A DNA stretch of 64,000 bases, taken from Escherichia coli. GTDB lineage: Bacteria > Pseudomonadota > Gammaproteobacteria > Enterobacterales > Enterobacteriaceae. The position numbers and the translations under genes are program-made. The stretch lies in assembly GCF_016903815.1 (NCBI RefSeq), contig NZ_CP069973.1; one strand, written 5' to 3'. The notes beneath the pieces are model-generated. The model saw nothing but the letters and a program-made list of their open reading frames with translations, did no database searches and was not told the DNA's origin. Shown piece by piece: positions 49,676 through 53,102 of this stretch (positions within the stretch are counted from its first letter, which is position 1; every line of letters begins with the position of its first letter).

Positions 49676-50233
49676 TCACTCTGTTATTTTTATCATATCC
49701 TTAAATGCTTTTTTCGGTACCGGGCCTCTAGATATAGCAAGACCATAGTTCGCAAAATCAGAAACAAGGCTAAATTTTTTTTTCTCATACTGGTAGTTCA
49801 TACACATCAAAGCTAATCTTACGCTGCTTACACCACTTAGCTCATCGCAAATATTTCTCTCTTCAATATCTACAACACGAATAGCATCGAATATTTTATT
49901 CAATGAATCAAAGTATTCAAAAAAACAAAACGCTTTGTTTTTTATCTCATTGATAACAAACTCACTACCTTCAAAAGAATGCAGCAAAGATATACTTAGT
50001 CCATCACACACACGGTTACGGATGTAACAATCTATTTCTTTTTTCGGTGGTTCATTGCAAAAATTTTCGAACACAGGATGAACACCTGTGTTTATAAAAA
50101 AAATATCACCTGTACTCTTTTTTTGAAAATTTATACAATTTACAAACTTATCATGAACTTTATAAAAATCATTGTTACCATTTTTTATAAACCCATTTTT
50201 GTTTAAAAAGTCACCAATCGGTTTGAGTTTCAC
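49676..50233 (-). CDS. Putative immunity protein cognate to the orphan Rhs C-terminal toxin
   Basis: 185-aa low-GC ORF immediately downstream of the orphan toxin module; function inferred from position. Confidence 0.5.
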   Translation of the reverse strand: MKLKPIGDFLNKNGFIKNGNNDFYKVHDKFVNCINFQKKSTGDIFFINTGVHPVFENFCNEPPKKEIDCYIRNRVCDGLSISLLHSFEGSEFVINEIKNKAFCFFEYFDSLNKIFDAIRVVDIEERNICDELSGVSSVRLALMCMNYQYEKKKFSLVSDFANYGLAISRGPVPKKAFKDMIKITE

Positions 50234-50244
50234 ACTATCACTCC

Positions 50245-50943
50245 TTATCGATAAATAATCGGTATACCATGTTTATTTAAAAGATCTTCAAGTGGTTTAG
50301 TTGGCCCAATCTTCCCTGTAGTTGAACTTCTTGTAAACACCCATTCAATTTGATCAAGTTGCTCACTTCTCAAAATCTTAATATCCCGCGCTACCTCTTG
50401 CCGTACTCGGGTTGTTAACCCTGTTCGACCGACTTTAGATTCTATACCCGTTACTCCATCAACAACGTCAATACGCTTTAATCCTCCTGTCACTCTATAA
50501 TTTTGTTCAATTAGAGTGGTTCCCCTCTCTTTGGCAATCATATCCCTTACTTTATCGCCAATCGTTTTATTTCGCTGGACCAGAGGCTTACCAAAATTAG
50601 ATGCAGCCCTTGCTGCCCGACTGGCTTCAAGGTTAGTCAGCGCCCACTGTCTGAGTATAGGACACGTTGCTAATCCCAGAGGATCAACATACCCACTAGG
50701 ATTAGGCACATACCGGTAAGTCTGCTCACCCCCCAGCAACCCCAGGGGATCACTCACCAGGTACATCCCGGTTTCCGGCTCGTAATACCGGAACCGGTTA
50801 TAGCACAGTCCGGATTCCGCATCCTGCCACTGTCCTGCATACAGCAGGCCGGGGTCGGCTTCCGCGTCCCGCTCCCCGCGCGGGTCCGGGTAGTCTGTGT
50901 CTGCGGGCAGGCTGCTCCGCCCACCACTCCACGTTACCTTCAA
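50245..50943 (-). CDS. Orphan Rhs C-terminal toxin module (core-end homology region + putative PD-(D/E)xK nuclease-like toxin domain)
   Basis: 232-aa ORF; its N-terminal ~120 aa closely match the end of the prePAAR-Rhs core including 'DPLGLATCPI..ANLEASRAARAASNFGK', then diverge; 'RIDVVDG...IESKVG' suggests a D..E.K nuclease motif. Confidence 0.6.
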   Translation of the reverse strand: MKVTWSGGRSSLPADTDYPDPRGERDAEADPGLLYAGQWQDAESGLCYNRFRYYEPETGMYLVSDPLGLLGGEQTYRYVPNPSGYVDPLGLATCPILRQWALTNLEASRAARAASNFGKPLVQRNKTIGDKVRDMIAKERGTTLIEQNYRVTGGLKRIDVVDGVTGIESKVGRTGLTTRVRQEVARDIKILRSEQLDQIEWVFTRSSTTGKIGPTKPLEDLLNKHGIPIIYR

Positions 50944-50972
50944 TGAAGGCGGTTTTTTACTTTTGTTTCAAA

Positions 50973-51341
50973 TTATCCTTTATTATCAATCCACTCCGAG
51001 ACATCTTGTATAACCAAATGTACCCATTCCCAAAAATCAGGGTAAAATTGTATAATATCAAACCCGTTAGGAGTCCACCCATTAATTAAATAAACACCCT
51101 CACAGACTCCAGATTCATTAATTTTGAAACAAGCCAATTCATCATTATCTTGACGTTTAGCAAAAGCGAATAATTGTTCACCTATGACATTTGGCCATTT
51201 TTTATTCGCAAAAAAACACCTGTTCTCATCTAGATAAAACCATGGTTCTAATTGGCTAAATTCACTGGTGCCAATAATTTTTTTTTCATTCAACCAACCA
51301 TATCCTATAGGGAAATGGATTTCATTTTTATTCATACCCAC
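50973..51341 (-). CDS. Hypothetical protein, possible orphan immunity protein
   Basis: 122-aa low-GC ORF in the toxin/immunity array; no recognised motif. Confidence 0.35.
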   Translation of the reverse strand: MGMNKNEIHFPIGYGWLNEKKIIGTSEFSQLEPWFYLDENRCFFANKKWPNVIGEQLFAFAKRQDNDELACFKINESGVCEGVYLINGWTPNGFDIIQFYPDFWEWVHLVIQDVSEWIDNKG

Positions 51342-51390
51342 TATCTTTTACCTCATTTGGGTTTAGGTAATCTTGGTGGAACTGTATTTA

Positions 51391-51473
51391 GGTAATAAGG
51401 AATATCTCAATTATTGAACATTTAGTGCGAATTATTTAGTACAAAAAAGCAGCGTTACGTGATCTTTCCCTGC
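51391..51473 (-). repeat. Solo ISAs1 terminal remnant (~80 bp, ~80% identical to the right end of the complete copy at 49355-49431)
   Basis: Shared 'taggtaat(g/a)aggaatatctc...gcgaattatttagtacaaaaa...gatctttccctgc' with no transposase gene attached. Confidence 0.55.
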
Positions 51474-51832
51474 GCTGGCGGCAGAAGATAGCTGGCTATC
51501 GTTATTCCCCCCAGGATCATTCTCTGCCACGGCGGGAACTCCGGCTGGATATCCAGATAGGTGACCTGCTCACCCCCAATAAAGACGTCCGGCGAACCTC
51601 CCACGATCGCCGCACTGCACTCCAGTTTGTCCCCCTTGCGCGCGGCGGGCTGATTGTTGATAAAAACGTTGCTGCTGCCCTGGGCTATCCTCGGCGGTTT
51701 AGTCTCCTTGTCGCAGAGCGCTGTGTCTTCACCGGCTTCCGGGAAATCCACGTCTTTTTTGATTTCGCTACGATCTTTCCCTGTCAGATCATGTAATACC
51801 AGCCACGAACTGAGGATATATGTAGAGGTCAT
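51455..51832 (-). pseudogene. Fragment of the PAAR-domain region of a prePAAR-Rhs gene, fused to the solo ISAs1 end
   Basis: 125-aa ORF; residues 'EIKKDVDFPEAGEDTALCDKExKPPRIAQGSSNVFINNQPAARKGDKLECSAAIV.GSPDVFIGGEQVTYLDIQPEFPPWQRMILGGITIASYLLPPA' duplicate 57934-58240 of the intact gene. Confidence 0.75.
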
Positions 51833-52047
51833 CAGTCATGAAAATCATCCTCGCATATAAGTTCACCTAACAGACCCGCATCTTTTAATTTCTTTAAGAA
51901 AAGAAAAGATAATTCCCGTTGATATTCTAATGTTGTGTCTACTCCCTTTAATGGGAATATGGATAATATGAATTTATAATACATCCATCCATCAACTCCC
52001 TCTGCTTTTATAGGGTCATAAAGATCATTATCTTCAATAACTACCAT
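51832..52047 (-). CDS. Hypothetical 71-aa protein
   Basis: Short low-GC ORF upstream of the PAAR fragment; no recognisable motif. Confidence 0.2.
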   Translation of the reverse strand: MVVIEDNDLYDPIKAEGVDGWMYYKFILSIFPLKGVDTTLEYQRELSFLFLKKLKDAGLLGELICEDDFHD

Positions 52048-52658
52048 GTTTTTTCTTCTCTTAATGCACTGGGAGTTATTTCAATAAGCCCTGGGATTAT
52101 GTTTTTAATTTTTCCATTAATTCTATCTTACTTGAGTTGGAGTTAATGGATATTGCAAATCTAATATCTTTTTTCTTCATGGTAACATAATACTCGGATT
52201 AGTGTTAAATGGTGAAGTTTTGGTCATAACAGAAACTTGAATGCTTGAAAACTCACCTTTTGGAAAGGAGTGAAAACCTCATCCGATACAGTAGATTCAA
52301 AAGTTTTAGAAATTGCTCTTGAATTTATTTTTTGATTTTTAGCAACGGCCTTCCTGATTAAATTTCGAGTCCTTCCTGAGGATCTCAGCAATACAGAGCA
52401 AGATCACAAAGGCCCACACCTTGCAAGGACTGATGTGAGGTGGGCTGCTACTGCACTGCTTACAGTAGGTTGCTTCCAGGTCTAGCTCCCTGTGTGAGTA
52501 GGATCAGTAGTCCAGGTCAGTCAGATGCTGAGTGCCAGACATCACAGGCATATTCGCTCCTGGACATCATAAAAGAACCTGCTGTTCAAGGCAGCTCTGT
52601 TGAACAGATAGGTTCTAAATTTAATGATTTTTGAAACAGATAATTATCCAATCCAACT

Positions 52659-53102
52659 TTAATACACAGATGACCAGTCAATGTCATCTGCATTCATCCA
52701 TTTTACTTTTTTTGATTTCTCTAAAGGATTTTTGAAAAAATCTTTTATTACTGATAAAGTAATATCAGGAGGTAAGCAAGAACCTAAAGGGATAAATTGT
52801 TCTGTATCAGCATCGACGATGATATTCATTTTATCATCTTCATGGTTACTATACCAGCATGACACTATTCCATCAGAACTTTGTGTACAATCATAGCGCA
52901 ATGAAAAATTATCACCATAATTCACAAAAAACAAAACACACTCTCTGTCATCATCTCTAAAAGTAAAATATCCTCCACATGAATCTTTATTCCAGTCATT
53001 ACGAGAGAAATTCTCAAAATAATGTAAATAATTGTTCAGTGAGGCGTTGTAGTCATAGGGATGAGTAAGGGAATTAGCTTCGATTTTCATACTAAACTCC
53101 AT
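52659..53102 (-). CDS. Hypothetical protein, possible orphan immunity protein
   Basis: 147-aa low-GC ORF in the immunity array downstream of the Rhs immunity gene; function inferred from position only. Confidence 0.35.
   Translation of the reverse strand: MEFSMKIEANSLTHPYDYNASLNNYLHYFENFSRNDWNKDSCGGYFTFRDDDRECVLFFVNYGDNFSLRYDCTQSSDGIVSCWYSNHEDDKMNIIVDADTEQFIPLGSCLPPDITLSVIKDFFKNPLEKSKKVKWMNADDIDWSSVY

What the first reader, a model, noticed from the sequence alone, without database searches (positions are those of the whole stretch)
49676..53102. Array of orphan Rhs toxin/immunity modules downstream of the main effector
The 232-aa ORF at 50245..50943 repeats the last ~120 residues of the Rhs core, including the 'DPLGLATCPI.RQ..ANLEASRAARAASNFGK' linker, then diverges into a different tip with a possible PD-(D/E)xK nuclease motif ('RIDVVDG...IESKVG'). 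It is followed by its own small ORF. Two more small low-GC ORFs (50973..51341, 52659..53102) could be stand-alone immunity genes. The shared linker is a ready substrate for homologous recombination that would swap the toxin tip onto the main effector.
Basis: partly seen in the sequence, partly recalled or inferred. Interest (0 to 1): 0.6.

Follow-up and report, generated by a model that had tools for sequence, protein, structure and literature searches.

The report
Displaced Rhs toxin tips and immunity genes
Downstream of an E. coli type VI secretion Rhs toxin gene lies a known kind of "graveyard" of displaced toxin tips: one intact spare nuclease toxin with its antidote, two antidote genes that have lost their toxins, and one decayed pair.

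Summary
The window is E. coli, at the known rhs locus between cusS and nfrB. The ORF at 50943..50245 (minus strand) repeats 328 bp (94.5% identical, 109 aa) of the 3' end of the main rhs gene, including PxxxxDPxGL and a 28-aa linker. It then diverges into a 113-aa tip.

The tip models confidently as an alpha-beta-beta-beta-alpha-beta PD-(D/E)xK fold, with D159 and E168-x-K170 invariant. A DUF4304 gene follows it in E. coli, Pectobacterium, Proteus and a metagenome. This is a conserved toxin/immunity pair, but the toxin matches no Pfam or NCBIfam family.

The two other flagged ORFs are orphan immunity genes. Each is preceded by a stub of its lost toxin, 26 and 10 codons long.

Three modules sit at the end of an intact full-length Rhs at this same locus in other E. 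coli strains; the fourth follows a contig-truncated Rhs C-terminal tip in a metagenome contig. The array therefore records serial C-terminal displacement, edited by ISAs1-linked deletions.

One correction matters. The main rhs carries a CAG-to-TAG nonsense mutation upstream of the repeat, so a tip swap alone would not arm this strain.

Verdict: an ordinary, well-described architecture. The only mildly new point is the nuclease/DUF4304 pairing.

The parts
54112..58941 (-). Main PAAR-Rhs effector gene, 1609 codons, downstream of vgrG (59450..61351) and a DcrB-related protein (58961..59422). It is interrupted by an in-frame stop.
   Evidence: RefSeq annotates the identical locus in strain 7/2 as 'RHS repeat-associated core domain-containing protein, internal stop'.
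56722..56724 (-). TAG nonsense codon (codon 740) in the main rhs. The codon is CAG (Gln) in the intact orthologue of strain PapRG-06-3.
   Evidence: The exact 61-mer with TAG occurs in 92 complete genomes. Strain XJ6.1 has the same array with an intact rhs.
54448..54775 (-). Main-gene copy of the 328-bp direct repeat: end of the Rhs core, PxxxxDPxGL, and the 28-aa linker ending in NFGK.
54112..54447 (-). Toxin tip of the main Rhs, a homologue of the EF-Tu/Ts-dependent tRNA nuclease domain of CdiA-CT EC869.
   Evidence: PDB 7vmc_B residues 199-306, E 9.6e-40; PMC9071432. No Pfam hit.
53582..54115 (-). Cognate immunity gene of the main tip (177 aa), a homologue of CdiI EC869.
   Evidence: 7vmc_C, E 3.4e-18. 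It is found with the main tip in 135 genomes.
53102..53182 (-). Stub (last 26 codons plus stop) of a deleted MafB19-like deaminase Rhs tip.
   Evidence: tblastn gives 85% identity to the end of a Salmonella orphan Rhs-CT; the intact tip in E. coli O114:H49 hits Pfam MafB19-deam at 1.3e-12.
52659..53102 (-). Orphan immunity gene (147 aa by ORF call, 143 aa as annotated), the partner of the deaminase tip.
   Evidence: Homologues sit 12 bp after MafB19-deam Rhs-CTs in Salmonella and after the intact full-length Rhs of O114:H49 90-9280 at the same locus. A homologue also lies in a CdiA orphan array in Achromobacter. No Pfam, NCBIfam or PDB hit.
52177..52394 (-). Stub (about 72 codons, with indels) of a nucleotidyltransferase-type Rhs tip. 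It includes the 55-aa ORF 52224..52391.
   Evidence: 97% identical to the 3' end of the intact Rhs of strain GF43; the GF43 tip hits NTP_transf_2 at 2.3e-5.
51832..52180 (-). Decayed immunity gene. It is 116 aa in GF43 and O121:H19 but is broken here by two 1-bp deletions. The 71-aa ORF 51832..52047 is its 3' part.
51473..51772 (-). Fragment of the PAAR region of rhs, a direct repeat of 57925..58224 (95% identical).
   Evidence: PAAR_motif 1.7e-9. Annotated as a partial PAAR protein.
51387..51473 (-). Solo left-end remnant of an ISAs1 (H-rpt) element. The transposase is deleted.
   Evidence: 93% identical to the left end of the intact ISAs1 that follows the PAAR fragment in GF43, and 81% identical to the window's own ISAs1 end.
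51356..51385 (-). 10-codon stub of a deleted Rhs tip. Its family gave no Pfam hit.
   Evidence: 100% identical to the last 10 residues of the Rhs-CT in metagenome contig L005.
50973..51341 (-). Orphan immunity gene (122 aa by ORF call, 120 aa as annotated) with a SUKH (SMI1/KNR4-like) fold.
50587..50914 (-). Orphan copy of the 328-bp repeat (core 3' end plus linker). It is the recombination handle of the orphan rhs-CT. The mechanical ORF starts at TTG 50943, inside a hairpin and without a Shine-Dalgarno sequence.
   Evidence: (Rhs_assc_core 1.2e-18).
50245..50586 (-). Orphan toxin tip (113 aa), a PD-(D/E)xK-fold predicted nuclease of a family with no Pfam or NCBIfam model.
49676..50233 (-). 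DUF4304 protein (185 aa), predicted cognate immunity of the nuclease tip.
   Evidence: DUF4304 5.6e-9. It lies 2-12 bp downstream of the tip in E. coli, Pectobacterium, Proteus and a metagenome.
49439..49650 (-). Mid-core rhs fragment, a direct repeat of 55858..56069 (94% identical), abutting the ISAs1 left end.
   Evidence: The same fragment follows DUF4304 in WL297, PapRG-06-3 and XJ6.1.
48149..49440 (-). Intact ISAs1-family element (H-rpt type, 1292 bp; transposase 48159..49295) closing the array next to nfrB.

Best explanation
This is the displaced-tip array of the E. coli rhs locus between cusS and nfrB. New C-terminal toxin/immunity cassettes were repeatedly recombined onto the resident PAAR-Rhs gene. 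Each event pushed the previous tip and its immunity gene downstream. ISAs1-linked deletions then trimmed most of the old toxins.

Four downstream modules remain:
1. a deaminase stub plus an intact immunity gene;
2. a nucleotidyltransferase stub plus a frameshifted immunity gene;
3. a 10-codon stub plus an intact SUKH-fold immunity gene;
4. a complete orphan rhs-CT encoding a PD-(D/E)xK nuclease, plus its DUF4304 immunity gene.

Inferred function: the intact immunity genes protect against kin that deploy those tips. The orphan nuclease has no delivery domain or credible start codon. It is silent unless RecA recombination across the 328-bp repeat fuses it to the main core, which would delete 3861 bp.

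In this strain the main rhs has a nonsense codon about 1.95 kb upstream of the repeat. Such a swap would therefore not yield a deliverable effector.
For: Shown:
- Repeat geometry and identity.
- Three modules end an intact full-length Rhs at the same vgrG-DcrB-rhs locus in another strain: PapRG-06-3 has the nuclease tip plus DUF4304; O114:H49 90-9280 has the deaminase tip plus the 143-aa ORF; GF43 has the NTase tip plus a 116-aa ORF, then a PAAR fragment and ISAs1.
- For the fourth module the evidence is weaker: a metagenome contig has a 73%-identical homologue of the 122-aa ORF 18 bp after an Rhs-CT that is cut off by the contig end.
- Toxin stubs lie directly upstream of the immunity ORFs.
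- ISAs1 end remnant and intact ISAs1.
- Nuclease fold and invariant catalytic residues.
- DUF4304 adjacency across genera.
- SUKH fold of the 122-aa ORF.
- The nonsense codon.

Literature:
- Jackson 2009 lists this very locus (nfrB/cusS) and proposes C-terminal displacement creating arrays of dissociated tips (PMC2935791).
Against: - No expression, toxicity or neutralisation data exist for any gene here.
- Foldseek support for the nuclease fold is marginal: best E 5e-3, TM 0.3-0.46, with Ras-like chance hits mixed in.
- No Pfam Tox-REase model matches the tip.
- I did not see a recombinant of this particular array. Of 114 complete genomes with the tip, 109-110 keep the same arrangement.
- The protective role of orphan immunity genes is inferred from other systems.
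Confidence: 0.85

Rival explanations
1. The orphan nuclease/DUF4304 pair is expressed on its own from an internal promoter and start codon inside the retained core segment. It would then act as an intracellular toxin-antitoxin-like module, as shown for the Salmonella Typhimurium main and orphan rhs-CT.
For: - Starsta 2020 mapped a P2 transcription start 89 nt upstream of the PxxxxDPxGL-coding sequence (PMC7043789).
- The equivalent position here (about 50789) and 100 nt upstream of it lie inside the retained 328-bp segment.
- A -10-like TGCTATAAC is kept at the aligned position.
- An in-frame ATG (Met60) lies five codons before the first DPLGL (my reading of the sequences).
Against: - The Salmonella -35 TTGACG aligns to AGGATG here (2 of 6), and the -10 lacks the final T.
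- The consensus scan found no sigma-70-like site on the minus strand between 50600 and 50950, and fewer sites in the region than in shuffles (9 against 16).
- This rhs belongs to a different clade from STM0291.
- No transcript data are available.
Confidence: 0.15
2. The whole array is non-functional debris drifting towards loss, and the intact ORFs are intact only because the displacement events are recent.
For: - Three of the four old toxins are reduced to stubs.
- One immunity gene is frameshifted.
- The main rhs and the neighbouring nfrB are both nonsense pseudogenes in this lineage.
- The array is nearly invariant (at least 99% identical) in about 110 genomes, consistent with one recent clone.
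Against: - Three immunity ORFs and the orphan toxin remain full-length.
- The orphan tip differs from the PapRG-06-3 tip at 7 synonymous and only 2 nonsynonymous codons.
- The DUF4304, 147-aa and 122-aa proteins have conserved homologues in other genera in the same toxin-adjacent position.
- Deletions removed the toxins while sparing the immunity genes to within 1-5 codons, which looks selective.
Confidence: 0.2
3. The small low-GC ORFs are chance open frames in AT-rich spacer DNA, not genes.
For: None of the 122-aa, 147-aa or 177-aa ORFs hits Pfam or NCBIfam directly.
Against: - Each has many homologues: 125 clusters for the 122-aa ORF, and 21 hits down to 45% identity for the 147-aa ORF.
- The 122-aa ORF gives a confident fold.
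- The 177-aa ORF matches a solved CdiI.
- All show conserved synteny after toxin tips.
Confidence: 0.02

Closest known systems
Salmonella Typhimurium LT2 rhs-main / rhs-CT-orphan (STM0291/STM0292) with rhsI genes (Koskiniemi 2014, PMC3967940; Poole 2011, PMC3150448)
   Same: - An orphan fragment lies downstream of a full-length rhs in the same orientation.
- It keeps only the 3' core and PxxxxDPxGL, followed by a different tip and its own immunity gene.
- The direct repeat is about 95% identical (522 bp there, 328 bp here) and can fuse the orphan tip to the main core.
   Different: - The array here is longer (four modules), and three toxins are deleted to stubs.
- The tips differ.
- The repeat extends 84 nt past DPxGL into a shared linker.
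- The main rhs is a nonsense pseudogene in this strain.
- There is no experimental evidence of rearrangement here.
C-terminal displacement arrays of enterobacterial rhs loci (Jackson 2009, PMC2935791), E. coli locus 4 between nfrB and cusS
   Same: - It is the same chromosomal locus.
- It shows the same pattern of dissociated tips with short core fragments downstream of an attached tip.
- Different strains carry different attached tips.
   Different: This particular array and its tip identities (tRNase, deaminase, NTase, nuclease) were worked out here and are not taken from that paper.
PD-(D/E)xK polymorphic nuclease toxins: PoNe/PoNi (PMC6688995), Tox-REase-5 TseT/TsiT (PDB 7dym, 9oz0), CdiA-CT EC869 o11 DNase (PDB 4g6u)
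   Same: - A small C-terminal restriction-endonuclease-fold domain on a polymorphic toxin scaffold.
- A D...(D/E)xK motif on strands beta-2 and beta-3.
- A dedicated downstream immunity gene.
   Different: - No sequence-profile match to any Pfam Tox-REase family.
- The immunity partner is DUF4304, not DUF1911/DUF1910 (PoNi), TsiT or CdiI.
SUKH (SMI1/KNR4) immunity proteins, e.g. RhsPI (PDB 8bd1_B) and YobK (2prv)
   Different: - The protein itself gives no Pfam SUKH hit, and only 1 of 50 family members reaches E<=0.001.
Immunity gene arrays left by sequential effector displacement in Vibrio cholerae T6SS clusters (PMC5361080)
   Same: Immunity genes are retained after their effectors are lost or displaced, forming arrays downstream of the current effector.
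   Different: - The effector scaffold differs (not Rhs).
- Here, visible toxin stubs and IS remnants document the deletions.

Membership tests
Orphan rhs-CT/rhsI module (Poole 2011; Koskiniemi 2014) | The fragment lacks the N-terminal delivery region (PAAR, YD shell) and a credible start codon. | tested here: met
   Homology to the main rhs starts only 328 bp before the tip. The only upstream start is a TTG inside a hairpin, with no Shine-Dalgarno sequence. RefSeq marks it as partial, missing the N-terminus.
Orphan rhs-CT/rhsI module (Poole 2011; Koskiniemi 2014) | Retains the conserved core 3' end with PxxxxDPxGL, followed by a divergent tip. | tested here: met
   Rhs_assc_core TIGR03696 at 1.2e-18. 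PSGYVDPLGL at residues 82-91. Divergence begins exactly after NFGK.
Orphan rhs-CT/rhsI module (Poole 2011; Koskiniemi 2014) | Lies downstream of, and in the same orientation as, a full-length rhs, with a small ORF immediately after the tip. | tested here: met
   DUF4304 starts 12 bp after the tip's stop codon.
Orphan rhs-CT/rhsI module (Poole 2011; Koskiniemi 2014) | The tip is toxic and is specifically neutralised by the downstream protein. | not testable with these tools
   Only indirect evidence: conserved adjacency in four genera and environments, and presence on an intact Rhs in PapRG-06-3.
PD-(D/E)xK nuclease superfamily | An alpha-beta-beta-beta-alpha-beta core fold. | tested here: met
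   [not shown]
PD-(D/E)xK nuclease superfamily | Catalytic D on beta-2 and (D/E)xK on beta-3, conserved across the family. | tested here: met
   D159, E168 and K170 (plus E146 and R181-Q182-E183) are invariant in 25 homologues. They map to strands E63-71 and E74-80 of the model.
PD-(D/E)xK nuclease superfamily | Metal-dependent nuclease activity. | not testable with these tools
The substrate (DNA or RNA) is unknown.
Pfam Tox-REase families (Tox-REase-2/3/5/7/9) | A match to a family profile HMM. | tested here: not met
   No Pfam hit on the tip even at E<=10. No NCBIfam hit beyond the Rhs core.
PoNe/PoNi | The immunity partner contains DUF1911 or DUF1910. | tested here: not met
   The partner is DUF4304 in every context examined.
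DUF4304 (PF14137) | A match to the Pfam profile. | tested here: met
   i-Evalue 5.6e-9 over model positions 2-75 of 115. RefSeq gives the same name.
SUKH / SMI1-KNR4 immunity superfamily (122-aa ORF) | SUKH fold, a profile match, and a toxin-adjacent position. | tested here: inconclusive
   [not shown]
CdiA-CT EC869 tRNase / CdiI EC869 (main tip and 177-aa ORF) | Sequence homology of both toxin and immunity to the solved pair. | tested here: met
   7vmc_B at E 9.6e-40; 7vmc_C at E 3.4e-18.
ISAs1 / H-rpt insertion element | A complete element of about 1.29 kb with an ISAs1-family transposase. | tested here: met
   A 1292-bp match, 95.2% identical to the GF43 copy. A 378-aa transposase annotated as ISAs1 family.

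The most novel reading that the evidence does not exclude
The orphan tip and its partner define an uncharacterised polymorphic toxin/immunity family pair. The toxin is a PD-(D/E)xK nuclease outside all current Pfam Tox-REase models, and DUF4304 is its dedicated immunity protein. This would give DUF4304 its first functional assignment. DUF4304 and PF14137 appear in no paper of the searchable library.
Probability: 0.7. Interest if true: 0.3.

Novelty: new member of a known kind. Interest (0 to 1): 0.15.

Why it matters
The finding has little general importance. Orphan Rhs tips, immunity arrays and their recombination onto the main gene are textbook for this field, and this very locus has already been catalogued.

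It has three local uses:
- It is a clean, fully resolved example in which three modules can be matched to a strain where they are still the active tip at this locus, and the fourth to a tip on a metagenome contig.
- It gives a testable function (immunity) for DUF4304, and it identifies a nuclease tip family that profile libraries miss.
- It shows that in this clinically common lineage the Rhs effector is inactivated while its immunity repertoire is kept. That is relevant when predicting T6SS competitiveness from genomes.

Tried and rejected
- Pfam and NCBIfam on all small ORFs and tips gave only DUF4304, PAAR and Rhs core hits. The 'Serglycin' hits are artefacts of my Gly-Ser linkers.
- PDB sequence searches for the orphan tip, the 147-aa ORF and DUF4304 found nothing meaningful.
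- The promoter and terminator scan found fewer promoter-like sites than shuffles and none in the orphan's retained core.
- I compared the orphan with the published Salmonella P2 promoter. The position is retained but the -35 is not conserved.
- An Rfam E-value scan of 47900..54500 found nothing.
- I looked for SymE-type genes, which are common antisense in orphan arrays elsewhere. There are none in the window.
- The word-index homology search for the tip returned only short proteins (75-196 aa). This briefly suggested the tip never sits on a full Rhs. The E. coli genome search refuted that, because PapRG-06-3 carries it on an intact Rhs.
- I considered whether the 46-bp match 52394..52439 to the ISAs1 right end (78% identical, E 5e-4) is a second IS remnant. 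It coincides with a module boundary but is too weak to assert.
- The roughly 400-bp AT-rich gap 53183..53581 yielded no identifiable remnant.

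
Full report
**Context.** The window is Escherichia coli. Bases 49300..54200 are 100% identical to strain 7/2 (NZ_CP023820) and to about 109 other complete genomes out of 5426. On the minus strand the gene order is:
- cusS;
- vgrG (61351..59450);
- a DcrB-related protein (59422..58961);
- a PAAR-Rhs gene (58941..54112);
- the array under study;
- an ISAs1 element;
- nfrB, nfrA, ybcH and envY.

Jackson et al. 2009 list this site (nfrB/cusS) as E. coli rhs locus 4. They describe rhs loci as arrays of tips displaced by newly acquired C-termini (PMC2935791).

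**Observation check.** The ORF 50943..50245 shares 328 bp with the main rhs 3' end (50587..50914 against 54448..54775). Identity is 94.5% and E is 3e-146.
- Homology begins at 'SLPADT' and ends exactly after 'NFGK'. That is 109 residues.
- It covers PxxxxDPxGL (residues 82-91) and a 28-residue linker, ATCPILRQWALTNLEASRAARAASNFGK.
- The longest perfect run is 60 bp, with further runs of 50, 41 and 38 bp.
- The core segment has 59% GC. The tips and small ORFs have 30-40% GC.

**The orphan toxin.** The 113-aa tip has no Pfam, NCBIfam or PDB sequence match. It does have 33 homologues. In an alignment of 25 of them, E146, D159, E168, K170, R181, Q182 and E183 are invariant.

An AlphaFold2 model built on 28 sequences has mean pLDDT 90.3 and the element order alpha-beta-beta-beta-alpha-beta. 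D159 falls on the second strand and E168-x-K170 on the third. This is the canonical PD-(D/E)xK layout.

**Its partner.** The next ORF (50233..49676, 185 aa) matches Pfam DUF4304 at 5.6e-9. A DUF4304 gene follows the homologous tip within 2-12 bp in every context examined:
- E. coli PapRG-06-3 and WL297;
- Pectobacterium quasiaquaticum;
- Proteus mirabilis;
- an environmental metagenome.

This conserved adjacency is the evidence for an immunity role. No paper in the searchable library mentions DUF4304 or PF14137.

**Is the tip ever attached?** Yes. In PapRG-06-3 the same tip ends an intact 1611-aa Rhs directly downstream of the same vgrG and DcrB genes, followed by DUF4304. That tip differs from the window's at 9 of 342 nt, which amounts to 7 synonymous and 2 nonsynonymous codon changes. 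The orphan is thus a displaced former main tip whose coding sequence is still intact.

**The two 'stand-alone' ORFs.**

The 147-aa ORF (53102..52659):
- It has homologues down to 45% identity.
- In Salmonella the homologue lies 12 bp after orphan Rhs-CTs with a MafB19-like deaminase domain.
- In Achromobacter it sits in the orphan array of a CdiA-like gene.
- In E. coli O114:H49 90-9280 it follows an intact Rhs at this very locus, whose tip hits MafB19-deam at 1.3e-12.
- In the window, the last 26 codons of that deaminase survive immediately upstream (53182..53105, 85% identical).

The 122-aa ORF (51341..50973):
- Its family has 125 representative clusters.
- A 73%-identical homologue lies 18 bp after an Rhs-CT in a metagenome contig.
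- The last 10 codons of that toxin are retained, 100% identical, at 51385..51356.
- Pfam SUKH signal is weak.

Both ORFs are therefore orphan immunity genes whose toxins were deleted.

1. A fourth module. Bases 52394..52177 are the last ~72 codons, with indels, of a nucleotidyltransferase-type tip that ends an intact Rhs in strain GF43 (NTP_transf_2 at 2.3e-5). Its 116-aa immunity gene is broken here by two 1-bp deletions, which leaves the 71-aa ORF 52047..51832.
2. A 300-bp PAAR-region fragment (51772..51473, 95% identical to the main gene). It abuts an 87-bp solo left end of ISAs1 (51473..51387). In GF43 a PAAR fragment is followed by an intact ISAs1.
3. A 212-bp mid-core fragment (49650..49439) that abuts the intact 1292-bp ISAs1 (49440..48149).
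4. The main tip is homologous to the EF-Tu/Ts-dependent tRNA nuclease domain of CdiA-CT EC869 (7vmc_B, E 9.6e-40). The 177-aa ORF after it is homologous to CdiI EC869 (7vmc_C, E 3.4e-18).
5. The main rhs carries an in-frame TAG at 56724..56722 (codon 740). The codon is CAG in PapRG-06-3. The TAG-bearing 61-mer is present in 92 complete genomes. Strain XJ6.1 has the same array with an intact rhs and an intact nfrB.

**Mechanism.**

Shown:
- the anatomy described above;
- three downstream modules occupy the attached position at the same locus in some other strain, and a homologue of the fourth's immunity gene follows a contig-truncated Rhs-CT in a metagenome contig;
- across 1340 genomes that share this core segment, the attached tips are annotated variously as restriction-endonuclease-fold, AHH or zincin-like toxins.

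Inferred from Jackson 2009 and Koskiniemi 2014:
- new tip/immunity cassettes recombine onto the core and shunt the old tip downstream;
- deletions, here flanked by ISAs1 ends, remove dispensable or harmful toxin remnants while immunity genes are kept;
- an orphan that keeps a core handle can be re-attached by homologous recombination.

In Salmonella the handle is 522 bp at 95% identity, and the event was selected experimentally, usually after duplication so that the main immunity gene is not lost. Here a simple crossover would delete 3861 bp. That segment holds the tRNase tip, its immunity gene, the 147-aa and 122-aa immunity genes and the decayed module.

The nonsense codon lies about 1.95 kb upstream of the repeat, so the chimera would still be truncated in this strain. 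The array's plausible current value is as an immunity repertoire.

**Rival explanations.**
- Internal, toxin-antitoxin-like expression, as in Salmonella (Starsta 2020). It cannot be excluded. The position equivalent to the P2 start site is retained, a -10-like TGCTATAAC is present, and there is an ATG (Met60). However, the -35 is not conserved and the consensus scan finds nothing there. I give it 0.15.
- Pure debris. Support comes from the frameshifted immunity gene and the pseudogenised main rhs and nfrB. Against it are the intact ORFs, the 7:2 synonymous-to-nonsynonymous ratio, and deletions that spare the immunity genes to within a few codons. I give it 0.2.
- Chance ORFs. This is excluded.

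**Comparison and novelty.** The architecture is a member of the well-described class of orphan rhs-CT/rhsI arrays, at a locus already catalogued. The nuclease tip belongs by fold to the PD-(D/E)xK superfamily, but it fails the profile test for the Pfam Tox-REase families. It also has a different immunity partner from PoNe/PoNi. I therefore file it only at superfamily level.

The one modestly new element is the conserved pairing of this unmodelled nuclease family with DUF4304.

**Verdict.** The finding is real and correctly interpreted, but ordinary. Interest is 0.15.

Noticed in passing
window 56722..56724 (minus strand): The main PAAR-Rhs effector is a nonsense pseudogene (CAG to TAG at codon 740). 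The TAG allele is in 92 complete genomes. XJ6.1 has the same array with an intact gene.
   Followed up: yes
window 45724..47961 (minus strand), stop at 46831..46833: nfrB, the c-di-GMP-activated glycosyltransferase needed for phage N4 adsorption, is split by an internal stop into ORFs of 375 and 368 aa. RefSeq marks it as a pseudogene in strain 7/2. It is intact in XJ6.1 and O121:H19.
   Followed up: partly
window 54364..54447 and 50587..50670 (linker ATCPI..NFGK): The 28-aa helical linker after DPLGL is shared by the tRNase tip (main) and the nuclease tip (orphan, PapRG-06-3, and a Salmonella homologue, P0001). It is absent from the deaminase and NTase tips. The main tip corresponds only to residues 199-306 of CdiA-CT EC869, that is, without its entry domain. 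This suggests toxin domains are swapped at a sub-CT boundary, downstream of the autocleavage site.
   Followed up: partly
L004 853..1284, L005 974..1405, L009 3727..3960, L015 5093..5763, L016 2973..3314 and 7091..7345: SymE_toxin-family genes sit on the opposite strand, immediately after immunity genes, in Rhs orphan arrays of Salmonella, Pectobacterium, Proteus and metagenome contigs. No such gene is in the window.
   Followed up: partly
window 52394..52439: A 46-bp stretch is 78% identical to the right end of the window's ISAs1 (48149..48194). It lies exactly at a module boundary seen in other strains (52394 and 52480). It may be a second IS scar, but the match is weak (E 5e-4).
   Followed up: partly
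window 53183..53581: About 400 bp of AT-rich DNA lie between the tRNase immunity gene and the deaminase stub, with no ORF, repeat or homology I could assign. The stretch is conserved in O121:H19.
   Followed up: partly
window 51473..51772 and 49439..49650 against 57925..58224 and 55858..56069: Two more direct repeats of the main rhs (95% and 94% identical) could mediate large deletions. Such deletions would remove most of the effector gene and the array.
   Followed up: no
L002 3494..4816 (E. coli WL297): A group II intron reverse transcriptase/maturase is inserted between two ISAs1 copies at the same locus. There the Rhs is truncated to 1239 bp next to cusS but keeps the nuclease tip and DUF4304.
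   Followed up: no
window 53582..54115: RefSeq labels the identical 174-aa protein 'RNA-binding protein' in some genomes and 'hypothetical protein' in others. It is homologous to the CdiI EC869 immunity protein (7vmc_C).
   Followed up: partly
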